The notes: generated by a model from the letters alone, not told the origin. DNA of 58,444 nucleotides from Chromera velia (GCA_018398765.1 JAHBMJ010000053.1:1-58444); one strand, 5' to 3'; positions 20,109-43,552 are shown, counted from the first letter of the stretch. Numbers and translations: made by a program.

Positions 20109-20705
20109 ATGAGTATTCCGTACGGTCACGTGCACCAGGGTTATCTCAATGGTCATCAGCTTGGCTACAGACCACAACAGATTGCTTGGCAGATCGCCAA
20201 CCGCAACCCAGTCCAGAGAGGCAGCGGCCAAACTTTTACCGAGGCTGCTGAGAAGGCGTTTGAGAATTGGAAGGAGAAGGTGCCTCAGAATTTTACCGAG
20301 GCTGCTGAGAAGGCGTTTGAGAATTGGAAGGAGAAGGTGCCTCAGAATTTTGCCGAGGTTGCTGAGAAGGCGATTGAGGATTGGAAGACACTCTTCCCTC
20401 GACCTCGACAGGCGCAGACCAATGGGCAGAGAGGTAGACGGCCAAGAAGAGTGAAAGCGCAACCCAAGAGAGGATCTCGGAGAAGACAGCAATCCCTCCC
20501 TTCTTCGTCTTCTTCTCAGTCAAGTTCTGACGAGCTGGATCCTGAAGCAGCAAAGAACCTTGCTGTCGGTCTTATGGCCGTTGGTGCCGCGGGAGCCGTT
20601 GCATATGGAGCCAAGAAGGTTTACGACTGGTTCACAGAACGTCCTGAAGAGTAAGTTTGGCAAGAGATGATGCTGTTTGGTGGTGGTTGTAGTGGCGGTG
20701 GTAGT

Positions 20706-20747
<42 letters not shown>

Positions 20748-21381
20748 TATGTGTGTGTGTGTGTGTGCGTGCATGTATGTTGTGATAAGACGTTGGAATG
20801 GCCTTCTTCGCAATGCATCCCGGATCCAAACTCCTCTCTGAATACTCTGCTCATTTAAGATACACATGCATGCTTTGAACGAATGTACAAGATCTCACAG
20901 CGAATCTCTCTCGCATGGTTTGAAAGGCTATGCAAGAACTCATAGCGAATCTTTGCGTTGCAGCGCTTCCATGGGACCGGGTGGGGAGCGGCCGGTCAAC
21001 AGTGAACGGTTCAGGGAGCAGCCGCCTACAACCGCCGCAGCTCCTGCCGTCGCTCAGGGCTTTGAGGAGGAGTTGCAGTATGCTCAGCCACCCCGCTTGA
21101 CTCAAGGCTTTGTGGAACCGCCCCCTACTCACGTCGCAGCTCCTGCCGTCGCTCATGGCTTTGAGGAGAAGCAGCAGTTTTCAGTCTCGATGTTCCCCCC
21201 TGGGCGACTTGTCCTTGTGACTGGACTGCCTCCAGGTCATCAATTGAACGGAAAGAGGGGTGTCGTTCAGGGCTACAATCCTCTCACAGGAGCTGTGGAG
21301 GTTCGGCTCAATTGTGAAATGAACGGATTGGTATATGTGAATCTCAGGCCCGAAAATCTTGTGAGAAGCCTTCCAACTTAA
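20109..21381 (+). CDS. Hypothetical protein with 19-aa tandem repeats, one hydrophobic helix and a C-terminal SH3-like barrel; probably 2 exons
   Basis: The apparent stop of ORF 20109-20654 lies inside a GTAAGT donor (20651) followed by a (GT)n intron. Acceptors at 20891 or 20900 rejoin in the frame of ORF 20866-21381. The C-terminus FPPGRLVLVTGL...LNGKRGVVQGY...VEVRL...LRPENL fits the GL..LNG..G.V...V.L...P.NL small beta-barrel common in protist proteins. Confidence 0.6.
20234..20385 (+). repeat. Coding tandem repeat, 57-bp unit, about 2.7 copies (FTEAAEKAFENWKEKVPQN)
   Basis: Two identical 57-nt units followed by a third, diverged, partial unit. Confidence 0.9.
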
Positions 21382-22103: not shown

Positions 22104-22192
22104 GTCTAGGCGCTTTCCTTGGAAGCCGCACGCCGGACATTCGGCGTTGGGGGGGGAGGCCAATAACCCCCTGTCCTATTCTATCCTATCCC
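22104..22192 (+). mobile_element. 5'-truncated 3' end of a LINE/SINE-like element (copy 1)
   Basis: ~60 bp matching 26653-26713, followed by a short TCCTA/TTCTA microsatellite tail. Confidence 0.55.
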
Positions 22193-23207: not shown

Positions 23208-26200
23208 ATGAGACAGATTTTCGAAATGCTTTCTCGTCCTGCTTCAGACCGTCTGTTTGGTCCCACAGTTTCCTCTTTTCTCCCGAAAAATTCTGCCCTA
23301 GGGCTCTCTCTAGATCACAGCAGAAGTCGGAAATGGGTTGATCAGCAATCAACAGGGCCGAGCAGGAGGGGCAAAGCTTATGCTGCCCGGGGTGTTGTCT
23401 CAGGCCCTTGGCTTCTGTCGTTCCCAAGTCATCTCCAAAACTGTGCACCAAGAGGGTCTCCGAACAACGATTGGGAAAGAAAACTTCAGACCGACTCCGG
23501 TTTCTTTCCTCTCGCAGGATCTTTTGTAACCTCTTCGGCTCTCTTCTTTGCTGAGAGAGCAACTGAGGTCATAAGTTTTCGTGCTGCTTGTGTGGGGTGC
23601 GTCAGCACACTCCAACATACTCCAAGGCAGTTCAGCACAGCAGCTGCTGTCTTTGCTACTTCTGTCCGGCTGGGAATTGTTGTGGATGAGGTGCGGACGG
23701 GCCTGGGGAAAGTAGCAAGTGCAGAGTGCTCCCAATTCGTCACAATCAGCCAGTCCTGGACTGAGAGGCTGGGCGCAATTGAGCTGGCGGTCGGTGGAAA
23801 GAGCTGTGATTCCTCCTGGATCGCAGGCGCGGAGACTTCTATCCCTGTATCCCGAAAAAGAAAACTTTGCCCACACGGGAAACAGAGCTACGTGTGTATA
23901 GACTGTGGTGGAAAAGGGCTTTGCGAGCATGGCCGTCAGAAGAACTATTGCAAGAAGTGCGGGAGCACACAAATTTGCGTGCATGGCCGCCAGCGCTCTC
24001 ATTGCAAAGAGTGTGGGGGGAAAGGATTCTGTGAACACGGCCGAAGGCGACACATCTGCAAGGAATGCAGAGGAAGCGCCATCTGTATTCATGGTCGTAT
24101 TAAGTACGTCTGTGTGGACTGTGGTGGAAGTGCTATTTGTGAGCATGGCCGTCAACGCAGTCAATGCCGAGACTGCGGGGGAGGAAGCATTTGTTCCCAT
24201 GGTCGGACGCGCTCCACGTGCCGCGAATGCGGCGGTGGTAGTTTCTGTGAACATGGTCGCCGACGTTCAGAGTGCAGGGAGTGTGGGGGTGGCAGCATCT
24301 GTGAACACGGACGCATACGTACAACATGTAGAGACTGTGGGGGGGGGGGTCTTTGTAGACACGGCCGATTACGTCCAAAATGCAGGGAATGTGGAGGGGG
24401 CAGCTTCTGTGAGCACGGGCGCCAGAGAAGCCTTTGCGCAGAATGCCAGAAAGACAATCCCGCTGTTTACCAAAGGCGAGAAAGGCGCAAGATTAGGTAT
24501 AGAGAGAACGTTGCCTACAGATTGGCATACGTAGTCAGAAATTCGGTTTGGAGATGCCTGACTGCTGTACGTGAAAGTAGATCTCTGCCCCAAACTAAGC
24601 ATTCCCACGAGTACCTCGGTTGCTCGTTCCCCGACCTCAAAGCCCACCTCGAGAGGGACGACTTCCACGGTAACCCCGGAATGTCGTGGGAGAATTACGG
24701 GAGTCTGTGGCACGTTGACCATATTGTGCCAATTTGGTACCGCGGGGCTGGGGGTGAGAAACCGGACACTGAGACTGTGATTTGTCGTCTCCACTTCTCT
24801 AATCTACAGCCGATGTGGTCAGAACAAAATCTGCGTAAGGGAAACAGGTATGTGGGGAAAGCATCAGCACTTTCCCTCACAACACAAAATCTCTCCACCA
24901 GGTCTGAATGTATTAGGCAGGAGACAGCCATGGGGGGTAGATCATCCGTGTCAACGAATCCGAGTGTCTTTGGCGGGTTCAGAGGCGTCCGAACCTTCTA
25001 CTCGTTGACTGCCCCAAATGCGTGCACAAGAGCAAATCGTTTCAGTCATCCTGCCACCCTGTGCGCTGGGGGGGTTGTTGCATCAACTGAGGGGGGGTTG
25101 GTGGGACAGGGACGAGCATACAGCAAGCGACTCAACTCCCCCTCAGTAACTCTTATCAGGCCCCTGTCGGCACTTCCGCCCTCCCCTTTGCCCGGCAAGG
25201 TAGACCGACGCATAGGCCCGGGTCCCCCTCCTTCCGGATGCTCTAGGCAGCGGGATGGGGGGTTAGTGCAAGACGAAACAGAACCCAGTCGGAGAGATGC
25301 AATGACAATTGGTGGATCCCTACAAGTAGTCGCACCACAACACGCTGCCCGTTCCGCAGCTTCCACACGTTCGCACTCCCAGGCTGCTCCGCAAAGAGCC
25401 CGTTGTCCCCATGGGAGACAGCAGTATGACTGCAAAGAGTGCGGGGGGAAGGGAATTTGCGAGCACGGCCGAGTTCGAAGGACGTGTAAAGCGTGTGGAG
25501 GGTCGCAAATTTGTGAACATGGTCGGGTTCGGTCGGCATGTAGAGAGTGCGGAGGACCCCAAATCTGCGTGCATGGGCGAAGACGCACCGTCTGTGTAGA
25601 ATGCAGAGGGGGGTCGATTTGTGTGCACGGCCGCATGAGGTACTTTTGTCCCGACTGCCGTGGAAAGGGCATTTGTCAACACAGGCGCCAACGCAGCCAA
25701 TGTCAGGAGTGTGGAGGGGGAGGGATTTGCGAACACGGTCGTGTCCGCTCCTCATGTAAGGATTGCGGGGGTGGGAGTTTTTGCATACACGGTCGTCTAC
25801 GAACCAGATGTAGAGAATGTGGCGGTGGCAGTTTTTGTGAGCACGGTCCTCGAAGAAGTGACTGCCGAATTTGCCAGAAAGACAATCCTGTGTTTGTAGC
25901 CAGGCAAGCACGACGAAAGGAGCTTGTTTTTCGGTTGACTCACACAGTAAGATCCGCCGTTTGGAGATACCTTCGCGCCGTCGGAGACGGCAGATCTCCC
26001 TCCCACAAGAAACGCTCCCACGAATACCTTGGTTGCTCGTTCCCCGACCTCAAAGCGCACCTCGAGAAGGACGACTTCCACGGCAACCCCGGAATGTCGT
26101 GGGAGAATTACGGGGGCTTGTGGCACGTTGACCATATTGTGCCCATCATGTTTGTGGATACCGATGGTCAGAGACCGGATGTAGACACAGTCATTTCTCG

Positions 26201-26294
26201 TCTTCATTTCTCTAATCTTCAGCCAATGTGGGGTGAGGAAAACCTTCGAAAGGGAAATCGGTATATTGGAAAGCCTCCTAGAATTCGTGTATGA
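23208..26294 (+). CDS. Intronless 1028-aa protein: two tandem modules, each an array of 18-aa Cys/His (CxH-x6-CxxC) repeats plus an HNH endonuclease domain
   Basis: Array 1: 11 repeats at 23865-24446. HNH-like domain 1 at ~24510-24860 (YLGCS...LERDDFHGNPGMSWENYGSLWHVDHIVP...NLQPMWSEQNLRKGN). Array 2: 9 repeats at 25401-25874. HNH-like domain 2 at ~25920-26291 (WHVDHIVP...NLQPMWGEENLRKGN). The ORF is uninterrupted. Confidence 0.9.
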   Translation: MRQIFEMLSRPASDRLFGPTVSSFLPKNSALGLSLDHSRSRKWVDQQSTGPSRRGKAYAARGVVSGPWLLSFPSHLQNCAPRGSPNNDWERKLQTDSGFFPLAGSFVTSSALFFAERATEVISFRAACVGCVSTLQHTPRQFSTAAAVFATSVRLGIVVDEVRTGLGKVASAECSQFVTISQSWTERLGAIELAVGGKSCDSSWIAGAETSIPVSRKRKLCPHGKQSYVCIDCGGKGLCEHGRQKNYCKKCGSTQICVHGRQRSHCKECGGKGFCEHGRRRHICKECRGSAICIHGRIKYVCVDCGGSAICEHGRQRSQCRDCGGGSICSHGRTRSTCRECGGGSFCEHGRRRSECRECGGGSICEHGRIRTTCRDCGGGGLCRHGRLRPKCRECGGGSFCEHGRQRSLCAECQKDNPAVYQRRERRKIRYRENVAYRLAYVVRNSVWRCLTAVRESRSLPQTKHSHEYLGCSFPDLKAHLERDDFHGNPGMSWENYGSLWHVDHIVPIWYRGAGGEKPDTETVICRLHFSNLQPMWSEQNLRKGNRYVGKASALSLTTQNLSTRSECIRQETAMGGRSSVSTNPSVFGGFRGVRTFYSLTAPNACTRANRFSHPATLCAGGVVASTEGGLVGQGRAYSKRLNSPSVTLIRPLSALPPSPLPGKVDRRIGPGPPPSGCSRQRDGGLVQDETEPSRRDAMTIGGSLQVVAPQHAARSAASTRSHSQAAPQRARCPHGRQQYDCKECGGKGICEHGRVRRTCKACGGSQICEHGRVRSACRECGGPQICVHGRRRTVCVECRGGSICVHGRMRYFCPDCRGKGICQHRRQRSQCQECGGGGICEHGRVRSSCKDCGGGSFCIHGRLRTRCRECGGGSFCEHGPRRSDCRICQKDNPVFVARQARRKELVFRLTHTVRSAVWRYLRAVGDGRSPSHKKRSHEYLGCSFPDLKAHLEKDDFHGNPGMSWENYGGLWHVDHIVPIMFVDTDGQRPDVDTVISRLHFSNLQPMWGEENLRKGNRYIGKPPRIRV

Positions 26295-26652: not shown

Positions 26653-26750
26653 GTCTAGGCACTTTCCTTGGGAGCTGCACGTCGAACATTCGGCATTGGG
26701 GCGGGAGGCCAATCCTCCGGACATAAATCCTAATCCTAATCCTAATCCTA
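26653..26750 (+). mobile_element. 5'-truncated 3' end of a LINE/SINE-like element (copy 2) with (AATCCT)4 tail
   Basis: Direct repeat of 22104-22164, followed by AATCCTAATCCTAATCCTAATCCT. Short tandem-repeat tails are typical of some non-LTR retrotransposons. Confidence 0.6.
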
Positions 26751-28548: not shown

Positions 28549-31883
<3,335 letters not shown>

Positions 31884-36121: not shown

Positions 36122-36348
36122 AGGGGGGGGTGGACCCTCTCGCAGGGGTACGAAGCGGGCCAATTTGGTACCCCTGGTGGAGGGGGGGGGTCCGACCTGC
36201 TCTGCAAGTTTGCGTCCAAAATGTGTCTAGGAGTGTTTCCTCGACACATTTTGGACGTAAACCTGCAGAGCAGGTCGGACCTCCCCCCTCCACCAGGGGT
36301 ACAAAATTGGCCCGCTTCGTACCCCTGCGAGAGGGTCTACCCCCCCCT
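36122..36348. repeat. Near-perfect GC-rich palindrome (foldback MITE-like), ~110-bp arms
   Basis: AGGGGGGGGTGGACCCTCTCGCAGGGGTACGAAGCGGGCCAATT... pairs with ...AATTGGCCCGCTTCGTACCCCTGCGAGAGGGTCTACCCCCCCCT around a ~5-nt loop near 36235. Confidence 0.92.
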
Positions 36349-36699: not shown

Positions 36700-37435
36700 C
36701 CTATGTTTTTTTCTACCTGCCTGACTGCCTCCGAAATTTCGCCCTTCTTGCTTGCTTGACTGCCCTCTAGCTTTCGGCCTTTCTATCTGGCTAAATGTCT
36801 TCCCAATTTTAGCCTTTCCGCCTGCTCTATTGCCTTCCTAATTTCGGCCTTCGCCGTGCTCCCAATTTCGGTTTTCCTGCCTGCCCGATTGCCTTCCGAA
36901 TTTCGGCTTTCTTGCCTGCCTGACTGCCTTCCAGAGTTTTGCATTCCTGCCATGCTGACTGCTTTCCCATTTCGGCCTTCTTGCCTGCCTGTTTCGGTCT
37001 TTCTGTCTGCCTCAATGCTTTCCAAATTTCAGCCTTTCTGTCTGCGTGACTAACTTTGCAATTTTGGCCTTCTTGCCTGTCCGGTTGCCTTCCCAATTTC
37101 GGCTTTCCTGCCTGCCTGATTGCCTTCCCTATTTTAGCCTTCCTTCCTGCCCAACTTTCCTCCTAATGCTTCCTAATTTCGGTCATCCTGCTTGCCCGAT
37201 GGCCTTCCTAATTTTGTTCTTCCTGCTGGCCCGACTGTCTTTCCAAGTTCGGCCTTCTTGTGTGTCTGACTGCCTCCCAGAGTTCGTTCTTTCTGCCTAC
37301 ATGCCTGCCTTCCAATTTTGGTCTTCTTGGCGGCCTGACTGCCTTCCAATTTCGGCCTTCCTGGCCGCCTGATTGCCTTCCCGATTTCGGCCTTCCTACC
37401 CGTCCGATTGCTTTCCCAATTTCGGTCTTCCTGCT
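36700..37435. repeat. Degenerate minisatellite, ~34-35-bp unit (AATTTCGGCCTTCTTGCCTGCCTGACTGCCTTCC-like), roughly 20 copies
   Basis: Recurrent AATTTCGGC(C/T)TT and GACTGCCTTCC/GATTGCCTTCC motifs at about 35-bp spacing. Confidence 0.85.
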
Positions 37436-40833: not shown

Positions 40834-42109
40834 GTCTGAATTATGTGTTGAGGTTGTTTGGTATTAGCAGACTAACATTGAATAGCAGGACATTGACAGA
40901 CTGGTCTGCTTGTCAGACTTCCTTCCCTAAGAATCTTTAAGAGCCCCGTTATACTCTAGAGCCCCGTACAAAGCTGACAGTGAGGCTCCTCACCCCTAGA
41001 ACTCCGGTCCAAGTATAGGGGTGTATGACACCGGGGGGGGGTTGGTGTGCAGCGCTACGAGAGCTGAGGGTGGATGCCCCCCCCCGGTATGATTCAGAAT
41101 GAGGTCATCTGAAAACGCCGGACTACAGATGGCGGGGGGGTATGAGGCATAATGGTAGATAAAAAAAACTTCTAACTTCTCAGCTATACAATATCCTAAA
41201 ATCTCTTTAACTATCTAAGACTATCTTAAAACTCAAAAACACTAATATATCTTAAACTATCAGACACTATTTAAAAGTGTCTTCAAACTAATTATGTTAC
41301 TAATATGTTACTAGCTTAGTTAACAATCGTATGCGATCTCATTCATGTACAACTTATCAATGACTGTGCAAGTCCTCAGTAATTTTTCGATCTCCGAACA
41401 GTGAGAGATGCTGAGAGGAGAGGGAAAGGCGATAGAGCGAAAGGCGATAGAGTCATACATGCATGTACTCGATCTCGGTCCATTGAGACACCATGTATAA
41501 ATACGATACACCAATTACGTACAAAGAGAAGGACTGAGGAAGGAGAAGAAAAGTTAATGTTGGAACAGTGTTACCTGACTACCCCAACGCGAAGTCACCC
41601 CGATACGTTCTGACAAGCCTATGGATTCAGAGCACCCACTTTGTCCTTCCAAGCGGGGGGCTTCGGATCTATCGCCTGGTGCACACTTGAAAGGCAGTGA
41701 GTTCGAGGACGAGAAAAGTCTCACTCACTCTTTAAAGGAATGTCGATCTTGCAGGGGATATACCACAAAAAAGATGGGTTGATAGCAGAAGAAGGGTCAT
41801 TGGGATCAACGCGGACAAAGTTCAGCAGACGAGGATTCAACAACACGATCTCTTCACACTGTTCCCTTTTTTTGTGAAGCTTTCTTCTCTTTGTATTCAC
41901 TCCAAAATACACCGACGGAAAGGCCGTCATCTTTCCGGCCTCACTCCCGTCTCTGTTCCAATCTACACTTACAAACTGACTTCCTTCTTGATCGACACGT
42001 GAAGAGAAAATCACTCTGTTTACCTCAGATCAGCTGACATCCGATTCAGTAGAGCAGAGCGTCTGCCACAATGCATGTCCGCAGGCTGAGAGTCTGCCAT
42101 AATACAATA

Positions 42110-42514
42110 TACCAAGCGCAACTCAATTTGGCATGATTACAATTGTGATTGCAAATGTGAAAAAGATTTTTATCGTACAAACAGTCTTTTAAAACTTGCG
42201 ATATATTTCTGATAATATTTGTAAAGTCTGTGCAAATTTTTAAGTTCGTACGCGAAACCGATTATGTTTGTGAAAAATATGAAAATTCAAAGTCAGGATT
42301 CGTTTTCCAGGGCCGCCCGACTTTGAATTTTCATATTTTTTGTAAACGTAATTGGTCACGCGTACGAACTTGAAAATTTGTACAGACTTTACAAATATTA
42401 TCAGAAACATGTTGCAAGTCTGAAAAAACTGTTTCCGCGATAAAAATATTTTTCACATTTGCAATCCCAAACGTAATTGGCTGTATGGGTTTCCAAATTG
42501 AGTTGCACTTGGTA
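42110..42514. mobile_element. Foldback MITE with ~185-bp inverted arms, TA-flanked
   Basis: TA|TACCAAGCGCAACTCAATTTGG... and ...CCAAATTGAGTTGCACTTGGTA|TA. Arms are complementary through to AAATTCAAAGTC / GACTTTGAATTT, with a ~25-nt loop at 42295-42319. Confidence 0.88.
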
Positions 42515-43552
42515 TACAATACAATGCATGCATGCATGCATGCATTAAAAAGCTGAACGTCAGCCTCGGTGGGCAACTCCGCATGGACACCGGGGGGGGG
42601 TATCCCTTCTTGCATGGGCCGGTAGCAGCGGACGCCGGGAGGGGCGGTGTCCGGCGCATCGAGCGCGAAGCGCCCGATGCCCGTCCCGCAATCCACGGGC
42701 ATAACGGAGCAAGCTTGGATGCCCCGCCCCCCCCGGTGTCCTAATAGGAGGATACACCCCTATGTCCAAGTGGCGGACCATTAAAAGACGTACAGGCTAA
42801 AAACTGCCTTCACAACCCCTTTGAGGGCCCTCATAGCCCCCCCTCCAACGGAGGACCACTCCAACGACCTCCAATGCACCCGCTCCCGCGAGTGCTGTTG
42901 AAGAAATGAGGAGCGCTTGGATAGAAGGGCCCTGGAGATCCCGTTAAGGATTCTATGCAGCGACAGCACCATATGGTAGCTTATCGCATGATCGCGTACA
43001 CGATCAGAGGGAAAACCACAGACAAGAAGAAAACCGTAGACAAGACGGAAACGGGCATTGCTTTAGAAAAAAATAAACTTAGGAACATCTCCCTGCTCGT
43101 GCGTCAGAAGAAGATCTCGCGCTTTGCAGCCACCGAGGCCCCCTAGAATCTCAGCTGTCAAGTCTTCTTCATCGGAAGAGGCCTGCCAAAAAATCACGTG
43201 CCTTAGGTATATTACACTGCACGTACAACGAGGAGGTGATAATAAGTTCAGAGACTACTTCATATGTAAGAGCTACAACAAGGCGAAAAGTTCCAAATTA
43301 CTGTAGAGAAAGAAGCAGCCAGGCGGGCAGCAGCTTCAAGACTGACAGAATTGAGCATGCAGCACGAAGGTCCAGATTGTAGGTATTAGAGATCATCTAC
43401 AAAAATTAAAGTCATTCGGACTGCAAAATGCGTATGCTACCAAGGGGGGGGGGGTCCTTGGGTCCTATCAAAATGAACGACTTCCGCAACCAGCAAAACA
43501 GCATGAGGTCAAGAATGACTTCTTTGTGGCTGTTTTCAAGCAGACCACAATC

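What the first reader, a model, noticed from the sequence alone, without database searches (positions are those of the whole stretch)
23865..25874. Candidate recognition code: fixed scaffold with hypervariable positions in each 54-bp repeat
Seen: all 20 repeats follow [hydrophobic]-C-x-H-G-R-X-R-X-X-C-x-[ED]-C-G-G-x-x at exact 18-aa spacing, with C, H, C, C invariant. Position 7 varies (Q,Q,Q,R,I,Q,T,R,I,L,Q / Q,V,V,R,M,Q,V,L,R), as does the 9-10 pair (YV,NY,SH,HI,YV,SQ,ST,SE,TT,PK,SL / YD,RT,SA,TV,YF,SQ,SS,TR,SD). Both arrays open with a CPHG repeat ending GGKG and close with a CQKDNP cap. Inference: variation concentrated in one short loop flanked by conserved Arg resembles TALE RVDs or PPR code residues, so each repeat may read a base or short sub-site.
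Basis: partly seen in the sequence, partly recalled or inferred. Interest (0 to 1): 0.85.

Follow-up and report, generated by a model that had tools for sequence, protein, structure and literature searches.

The report
Tiny zinc-repeat nuclease, candidate DNA code
An alga carries an intact gene, likely taken from a giant virus, in which two strings of 18-residue predicted zinc-binding repeats each lead an HNH-type domain predicted to cut DNA; two positions in each repeat evolve as if they pick DNA letters, which would make this a very compact natural counterpart of engineered zinc-finger nucleases, though no binding has been measured.

Summary
The repeats are real: 11 + 9 units of 18 aa (CxH-x6-CxxC) in one 1028-codon frame. 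The repeat matches no family library or solved structure searched. It is common in giant viruses, fused to at least four nuclease types, and expanded in Chromera. Positions 7 and 10 change fast between new copies (dN/dS about 2.3-4), are conserved in collinear orthologues (0.25-0.28), and position 7 prefers Arg over Lys 84:8 even in AT-rich genomes, so the variation is not neutral. One viral subfamily beside the capsid gene fits a two-bases-per-repeat reading of rival capsid-start alleles (joint p 0.043), and carriers avoid that site. This came from an earlier scan note, was noticed post hoc, and did not replicate in two held-out groups or family-wide. No target was found for the window's arrays. 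Verdict: likely a modular DNA-reading repeat on a homing-type nuclease, closer to zinc fingers than to TALEs; a clean code is plausible but unproven. The scan found this family before on other DNA.

The parts
23208..26294 (+). Open frame of 1028 codons without stops; the true start is uncertain because the first ~200 residues have no homologue among the proteins held
   Evidence: 0 stops in this frame, 18-44 in the other five
23865..24458 (+). Array 1: 11 repeats of 18 aa, CxH-x6-CxxC, predicted zinc-binding; residues 7+10 = QV QY QH RI IV QQ TT RE IT LK QL
24459..24860 (+). Basic helix plus HNH-type nuclease 1 (WHVDH at 24708, HFSNLQP at 24792, NLRKGN at 24828)
   Evidence: (phrog_1035, E 7.6e-9)
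24861..25400 (+). Low-complexity linker between the two units, homologous to the linker of another Chromera paralogue
   Evidence: P0006, 38% over 93 aa, E 2e-9
25401..25886 (+). Array 2: 9 repeats; residues 7+10 = QD VT VA RV MF QQ VS LR RD
   Evidence: (pLDDT 90-96 over residues 1-130)
25887..26291 (+). Basic helix plus HNH-type nuclease 2 (WHVDH at 26121, HFSNLQP at 26205, NLRKGN at 26241); 66% identical to nuclease 1, dN/dS 0.19
22104..22164 (+). 61-nt direct repeat, left copy, on one side of the gene; link to the gene not shown
26653..26713 (+). 61-nt direct repeat, right copy, 89% identical to the left

Best explanation
The gene encodes two tandem units, each an array of 18-residue predicted zinc-binding repeats followed by an intact HNH-type domain, likely acquired from a giant-virus selfish nuclease, and the repeats likely read DNA sequence through positions 7 and 10. 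Shown: the anatomy, the intact catalytic motifs, purifying selection on the nucleases, the giant-virus distribution, the swappable nuclease partners, and the selection pattern at 7 and 10. Inferred: each repeat folds round one zinc ion; Arg/Lys at 6 and 8 grip the backbone; 7 and 10 contact adjacent bases, about two base pairs per repeat, with Arg for G, Gln for A, Glu for C and aliphatic residues for T. In viruses the gene would act as a free-standing homing nuclease that cuts a conserved neighbour gene in rival genomes, erodes its own target and is retargeted by repeat shuffling, as with PRDM9. In the alga the doubled form would address two sites or act as a one-chain paired nickase; its targets are unknown. 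Odds: sequence-specific reading by 7 and 10 about 0.65; a reprogrammable two-base code about 0.4.
For: Family: 1645 homologues. Of the 121 proteins classified, 50 have HNH and 46 PD-(D/E)xK tails; classic HNH and EndoVII-type tails also occur, as do T5orf172, SET, Myb, Tudor-knot and CW fusions. Viral neighbours include NCLDV capsid, A32 and YqaJ genes. At the DUF5824 3' end, 80 alleles show 42 downstream classes, and 11 of 34 adjacent ORFs carry nuclease or nuclease-associated Pfam families. Selection: 271 recent paralogous pairs give dN/dS 2.3-4.2 at 7, 2.4-3.9 at 10, 1.0-2.1 at 9 and 0.15-0.47 at 6 and 8; 47 repeats in 7 collinear orthologous pairs give 0.25, 0.28 and 0.33. Chemistry: in genomes under 33% GC, R:K is 84:8 at 7 against 274:383 at 6+8; Q:N is 86:7 and E:D 19:0. 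Covariation: E7-K10 2.3x, R7-E10 2.0x, R7-K10 0.25x, R7-D9 1.7x. Code: with a residue-base table fixed, arrays of the capsid-start subfamily score best at one register on non-carrier alleles in 7 of 7 cases (120-nt window) and 6 of 7 (450 nt). The joint p is 0.043, against 0.43-0.88 for four other geometries. GGTGGTGG occurs in 0 of 9 carriers and 42 of 69 non-carriers. Carriers use GGA/GGG in 19 of 27 Gly codons at the site but 6 of 156 further down the same gene.
Against: No binding data, and model coordinates could not be inspected. The family-wide scan of own flanks with the same table was null (84 elements, 8 geometries). Learned-code searches were null where a planted two-base code was detectable, and the one hint failed cross-validation. 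Held-out groups did not replicate: 10 DUF5824 arrays p 0.31 and 0.14; 7 carriers at the capsid 3' end p 0.49 and 0.31, with only L453 at 0.017; L130 and L155 beside the capsid start gave no hit. The positive subfamily is one clade, was spotted by eye after a lead, and its first three and last repeats fit poorly. Only 2 of 7 members are individually significant, and only 3 of 7 score their own allele below most rivals. Its nearest non-carrier also lacks GGTGGTGG. Against the fastest synonymous site alone, the dN/dS intervals at 7 and 10 include 1 (0.85-2.7). Fast paralogous and slow orthologous evolution is general for repeat proteins (PMC5120217). The window's arrays have no target in the window (p 0.08 and 0.89).
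Confidence: 0.62

Rival explanations
1. The array reads sequence, but as one context-dependent surface in which neighbouring repeats overlap, so no portable per-repeat code exists.
For: Position 10 of one repeat covaries with position 7 of the next (third strongest inter-repeat signal, z about 7). There are 638 different 7/9/10 triplets in 1523 repeats. The simple table fails outside one subfamily.
Against: The capsid-start subfamily fits independent two-base steps over six repeats. Whole blocks of repeats are duplicated and reshuffled between close relatives.
Confidence: 0.3
2. The array is a basic, non-specific clamp that tethers the nuclease to DNA; positions 7, 9 and 10 are exposed and merely relaxed.
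For: The arrays are basic (K+R 38 against D+E 18, and 33 against 14). Arrays at one locus differ freely: 76 of 91 same-length pairs with a similar nuclease are not collinear. The conservative dN/dS intervals include 1.
Against: Lys and Asn are rare at 7 even in AT-rich genomes, where drift would favour them. Orthologous arrays conserve 7, 9 and 10 (identity 0.64, 0.55, 0.64 against 0.13, 0.12, 0.14 for paralogues).
Confidence: 0.15
3. In the alga this copy is an inert viral relic with no present function, whatever its viral relatives do.
For: No long near-identical piece of this copy was seen in four presumed RNA assemblies. Several Chromera paralogues are predicted with the repeats out of frame. 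The gene has no introns.
Against: 1028 codons are open with all 80 zinc ligands and both active sites intact, although synonymous sites between repeats are saturated (pS 0.81). dN/dS between the two nucleases is 0.19 (0.10-0.30).
Confidence: 0.15
4. The repeats bind RNA or protein partners rather than DNA.
For: The repeat is also fused to CBM20, Kelch and lipase domains.
Against: Most partners are DNases of four folds, a DNA ligase and chromatin domains; the capsid-start signal is at DNA level.
Confidence: 0.06

Closest known systems
Free-standing homing endonucleases (intronless homing; F-CphI, T4 MobE; PMC6083498 passages)
   Same: Optional nuclease gene between conserved genes. Viral relatives sit at a hotspot shared with GIY-YIG, T5orf172, HNH and DUF559 genes, and one subfamily appears aimed at the adjacent capsid gene of non-carriers.
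   Different: The binding arm is a long array of one uncatalogued 18-aa repeat (median 8, range 3-17) that is reshuffled between close relatives. The window's copy is nuclear, eukaryotic and doubled.
C2H2 zinc-finger arrays, above all PRDM9 (PMC5120217 passages)
   Same: Tandem zinc modules; positive selection at a few positions between copies. The variable residues lie just before and within a short helix, recalling positions -1, +2 and +3 of C2H2 fingers (numbering recalled).
   Different: 18 aa against 28; CxH-x6-CxxC ligands; predicted 3-residue helix; likely two rather than three bases per unit; no Pfam C2H2 match.
TALE and PPR repeats; STAR proteins (PMC11417379 abstract and passages)
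   Same: Fixed scaffold with a few hypervariable residues in a tandem array.
   Different: Those are helical hairpins that read one base per repeat (recalled for TALE and PPR); this unit is a predicted zinc knuckle, and one-base models gave no signal.
MIGEs of Mimiviridae (10.1101/299784, whole text)
   Same: Multi-copy single-ORF mobile elements of giant viruses with a zinc-finger motif.
EsV-1-7 repeat (PF19114; PMC12477816 passage)
   Same: Cys/His repeat shared by giant viruses and algae, called a possible uncharacterised zinc finger, and fused to a transposase in Ectocarpus.
   Different: Different motif; no Pfam hit for the window's repeats. The two occur together in P0062 and P0186.

Membership tests
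TALE / PPR repeats | 33-35-aa helical hairpin repeat (recalled) | tested here: not met
   18-aa period; model has only 3-residue helices in the array; no Pfam hit
TALE / PPR repeats | One base per repeat set by the variable residues | tested here: inconclusive
   One-base models null; power for one base per repeat was modest or absent
C2H2 zinc finger | Cx2-4C-x12-Hx3-5H motif, 28-aa period (recalled) | tested here: not met
   Motif is CxH-x6-CxxC at 18 aa; no C2H2 family in Pfam up to E 1 for the array
C2H2 zinc finger | Base contacts from residues at the start of a helix | not testable with these tools
   Secondary structure puts 7 before and 8-10 in a short helix; no coordinates or protein-DNA model available
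HNH / beta-beta-alpha-metal nuclease | Asp-His, structural Asn and distal Asn metal ligand | tested here: met
   D244, N272 and N281 invariant and H245 at 90% or more in 46 sequences; intact in both units
HNH / beta-beta-alpha-metal nuclease | Fold match to solved members | tested here: inconclusive
   Foldseek best E 0.37, Cas9 HNH; VIA Z 4.7 CAD (rmsd 3.9, 109 aligned), 4.1 PacI (rmsd 3.6, 85 aligned)
DHHRN / Endonuclease VII family | DHDH flanked by CX2-4C and CX2C (PMC6083498) | tested here: not met
   The window has VDHIV and no flanking Cys pairs, despite the PHROG label 'endonuclease VII'
Free-standing homing endonuclease | Optional gene beside a conserved gene, with alleles lacking it | tested here: met
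   For viral relatives: DUF5824 site; capsid start, 11 carriers among 277 starts. Not testable for the window's copy, as no genome is held
Free-standing homing endonuclease | Cleaves the neighbour gene in genomes that lack it | not testable with these tools
   Indirect only: predicted site and local codon avoidance at the capsid start
MIGE | Homology to described MIGE ORFs | not tested
   No named MIGE sequence was obtained
EsV-1-7 repeat (PF19114) | Match to the Pfam model | tested here: not met

The most novel reading that the evidence does not exclude
This 18-residue zinc repeat is a new class of programmable DNA reader, the most compact yet at about 9 residues per base. Residues 7 and 10 specify two adjacent bases by a simple table; giant viruses use it to retarget four kinds of nuclease in a PRDM9-like arms race; and algae have adopted it as gene families, here as a one-chain pair of guided nucleases.
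Probability: 0.35. Interest if true: 0.92.

Novelty: new variant of a known kind. Interest (0 to 1): 0.72.

Why it matters
Few natural protein repeats are known to have a usable DNA code (C2H2 fingers, TALEs). A 54-bp module that reads two bases would be several times more compact, and thousands of natural arrays exist to learn from (about 4800 metagenome stretches estimated for one pattern). The capsid-start subfamily supplies a named enzyme-site pair, so the code can be tested directly. It would also explain how free-standing nucleases of giant viruses keep finding new targets, and point to an overlooked family of DNA-binding proteins in Chromera and other algae.

Tried and rejected
Library searches for the repeat gave nothing: Pfam, NCBIfam, PDB sequences and Foldseek on PDB. 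PHROGs gave only a weak unknown family (phrog_37414, E 0.0025). The ESM Atlas returned unnamed viral clusters labelled 'DnaJ central domain'; that label is automatic and no DnaJ Pfam family matched. VIA-align tested only the nuclease part and the repeat alone was not folded, so its lack of a known fold is not established. The phage collection gave no match (50,697 records, low-complexity filter on).

Code searches on own flanks: an apparent step-3 signal vanished under order shuffling. A z 4.5 peak is best read as coupling inside the arrays. Eight EM geometries were null except one, which reflected codon periodicity and failed cross-validation. The wide-flank EM had no power, and the DUF5824 EM had uneven power and no signal. 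The capsid-start fit on own alleles alone was not significant (18.2 against a null maximum of 22.1).

Expression: no RNA holder was listed. Contigs from four presumed RNA runs match the repeat and nuclease parts mostly at under 90% identity, that is paralogues; this is not evidence on this copy.

The representative-protein search and the complex predictor were not available, so nuclease dimerisation is untested. No terminal inverted repeats of note flank the gene.

Ten literature searches found no description of this repeat. The supplement of PMC11417379, which may list it among screened candidates, could not be read.

Full report
Observation. The finding lies in one open frame, 23208-26294 on the plus strand, 1028 codons. 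It holds 11 repeats from 23865 and 9 from 25401, each 54 bp, with C2, H4, C11 and C14 invariant and the variable residues exactly as listed. No other copy of the motif occurs in six frames of the window, and shuffled proteins give 0.011 motifs on average. The main omission is that each array is followed by a basic helix and a nuclease domain (phrog_1035, E 7.6e-9) with intact D-H, N and N residues. The two nucleases are 66% identical with dN/dS 0.19 (0.10-0.30), so the doubled gene has been under purifying selection. The host is inferred to be Chromera velia or a close relative: the best named hits are Chromera proteins. No genome is held.

Family. Unit 2 finds 1645 proteins among 2099 candidates. 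Of the 120 listed plus the query, 50 end in this HNH domain, 46 in a PD-(D/E)xK domain, 12 in little or nothing, 10 in other tails, and 3 are Chromera models with the repeats out of frame (classes by my own motifs). A DNA pattern for the repeat gave 123 viral stretches, many from giant-virus bins. Among 116 neighbouring ORFs scanned, six are NCLDV capsid proteins, five DUF5824 and two YqaJ. Of 184 closed ORFs, 60 are PD-(D/E)xK, 41 HNH of this type, 4 classic HNH, 2 EndoVII-like, 62 nuclease-free and 15 not firmly classed. Longer proteins join the repeat to SET, Myb, Tudor-knot, CW, Kelch, DNA ligase and, in many Chromera models, CBM20. All seven Chromera nuclease relatives show traces of the tandem layout. 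In a tree of 58 nuclease domains (a subsample; P0015 left out), the 8 Chromera rows form one group (100/100) inside a 28-row group of repeat-bearing viral and metagenome proteins (100/99). Transfer from virus to alga is inferred from this nesting and the lack of introns; the tree was not rooted and no clade test was run.

Structure. AlphaFold2 with 46 sequences gives pLDDT 90-96 over most of the array, with one pattern per repeat: a bridge at positions 1 and 7 and a 3-residue helix at 8-10. Arrays begin at CxH and end at CxxC, which suggests one zinc per repeat (inference). No solved structure matched the array by Foldseek. VIA-align matched only the nuclease, weakly, to CAD, PacI and Cas9 HNH. 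Viral models matched the whole unit, for example Pithovirus A0A481Z8I3 at E 1e-25.

Mobility in viruses. At the 3' end of prasinovirus DUF5824, 80 alleles have 42 different downstream sequences; 11 of 34 adjacent ORFs carry nuclease or nuclease-associated families, and this family is one of the occupants. Elements at that site keep a close nuclease (74-100% to L106) but have unrelated arrays. This fits free-standing homing nucleases as defined in PMC6083498 (passages), with rapid retargeting.

Are positions 7, 9 and 10 special? In 271 recently duplicated pairs from 197 array clusters, picked on other positions, dN/dS is 2.3-4.2 at 7, 2.4-3.9 at 10 and 1.0-2.1 at 9, but under 0.5 at 6, 8, 12 and 13. 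Against the fastest synonymous site alone, the intervals are 0.85-2.7 and 0.88-2.65. In the 7 collinear pairs among 91 same-length pairs, the values are 0.25, 0.28 and 0.33. PMC5120217 (passages) reports that fast paralogous and slow orthologous change is general for repeats, with averages usually under 1 and PRDM9 at 2.7; so the contrast alone is weak, and what counts is its focus on two positions. Position 7 holds Arg, Gln, Ile, Val, Glu and Leu at all GC levels. In 349 repeats from AT-rich loci R:K is 84:8 there against 274:383 at 6 and 8. That is the pattern expected of base contacts at 7 and backbone contacts at 6 and 8 (inference from recalled protein-DNA chemistry). Covariation is residue-specific, not just charge: R7-K10 0.25x but R7-R10 1.1x.

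Is there a code? My first tests on each element's own flanks were negative. An earlier scan note (e1-8336367) said that relatives beside the capsid gene read two bases per repeat. I then found a collinear subfamily divergent from the capsid start and saw by eye a fit to the common start sequence, using the table fixed (R/K=G, Q/N=A, E/D=C, I/V/L/M/T=T), with residue 7 as first and residue 10 as second base. On own alleles the best joint site was the start codon but not significant. New scans gave 277 capsid starts, 11 with a divergent array, among them members not seen before (L632, L641, and L586 with irregular spacing, which was not scored). On non-carrier alleles 7 of 7 scored subfamily arrays peaked at the same register in a 120-nt window, and 6 of 7 in 450 nt, two of them individually significant (p 0.01 and 0.02). 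The joint p was 0.043, and 0.43-0.88 for four other geometries. Repeats 4-9 match GG TG GT GG TY TW; repeats 1-3 and 10 fit poorly. Carriers lack GGTGGTGG (0 of 9 against 42 of 69; Fisher p 0.0005, not corrected for kinship). They use GGA/GGG in 19 of 27 Gly codons at the site and 6 of 156 from codon 41 on, in seven haplotypes, which looks like repeated escape. Against this: L130 and L155 gave nothing; the family-wide scan was null; 10 DUF5824 arrays (p 0.31 with the prior table, 0.14 with the refined one) and 7 carriers at the capsid 3' end (p 0.49 and 0.31; L453 alone 0.017) did not replicate; only 3 of 7 carriers score their own allele below most rivals, and the nearest non-carrier also lacks the motif. 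The window's own arrays have no significant site in the window.

Comparison and novelty. It works like a zinc-finger nuclease and is most likely a member of the free-standing homing nucleases, but the repeat fails the defining tests for TALE, PPR, C2H2, EsV-1-7 and the nuclease fails that for DHHRN. Ten literature searches found no account of it. Papers seen: PMC11417379 (abstract, outline, passages; supplement unreadable and possibly relevant), 10.1101/299784 (whole text), PMC12477816, PMC5371798, PMC6083498 and PMC5120217 (passages). The scan has noted the viral family before; new here are the doubled algal gene, the spread into algal fusion families, the position-specific selection and chemistry, and an independent test of the two-base idea with its failures.

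Verdict. The feature is real. Sequence reading by positions 7 and 10 is likely (about 0.65) and a portable two-base code is plausible (about 0.4). New variant of a known kind; interest 0.72.

Noticed in passing
L303-L306 (one 12.3-kb metagenome contig): Tandem cluster of at least 11 nuclease-free repeat-array genes, many ending in a short IDxLLKAASQI-like tail; candidate DNA-binding repressors with varied arrays.
   Followed up: no
P0180; also P0218, P0220-P0223: A SET domain followed by a C-terminal array of 7 repeats, the same layout as PRDM9 built from a different zinc module; the other five have SET with 2 repeats.
   Followed up: no
P0122, P0127, P0129 and about 15 other Chromera proteins: A family of gene models joining an N-terminal CBM20 starch-binding domain to a C-terminal repeat array without a nuclease.
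   Followed up: partly
L203-L282, 3' end of prasinovirus DUF5824: Insertion hotspot: 42 downstream classes in 80 alleles, changing at the stop codon, with GIY-YIG, T5orf172, DUF559, TnsA-like, GmrSD/HNH and NgoBV genes among the occupants.
   Followed up: partly
L226, L236, L258, L261, L262, L272, L276, L279: A nearly fixed four-repeat version of the array recurs near DUF5824, unlike the fast-shuffling long arrays.
   Followed up: no
L453, L462, L520, capsid 3' end: Six-repeat arrays with RR at repeats 2 and 4; two score best at the conserved M-S-G-M codons of rival alleles, and all three carriers have altered codons there.
   Followed up: partly
window 22104-22164 and 26653-26713: 61-nt direct repeat (89% identical) on either side of the gene, with no third copy in the window; the right flank is AT-rich (32-37% GC) and holds (AATCCT)4 at 26726.
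   Followed up: partly
window 36122-36348 and 42108-42516: Long imperfect palindromes (93% and 80%), possibly miniature transposons; 35-bp tandem array at about 36700-37434.
   Followed up: no
window 20109-20654 and 20866-21381: Two short intronless ORFs upstream of the gene; the first has a 57-bp repeat (2.7 copies) and only a sub-threshold Pfam hit.
   Followed up: no
window 28549-30315, minus strand: Neighbouring host gene with an FGE-sulfatase domain (E 6e-28).
   Followed up: no
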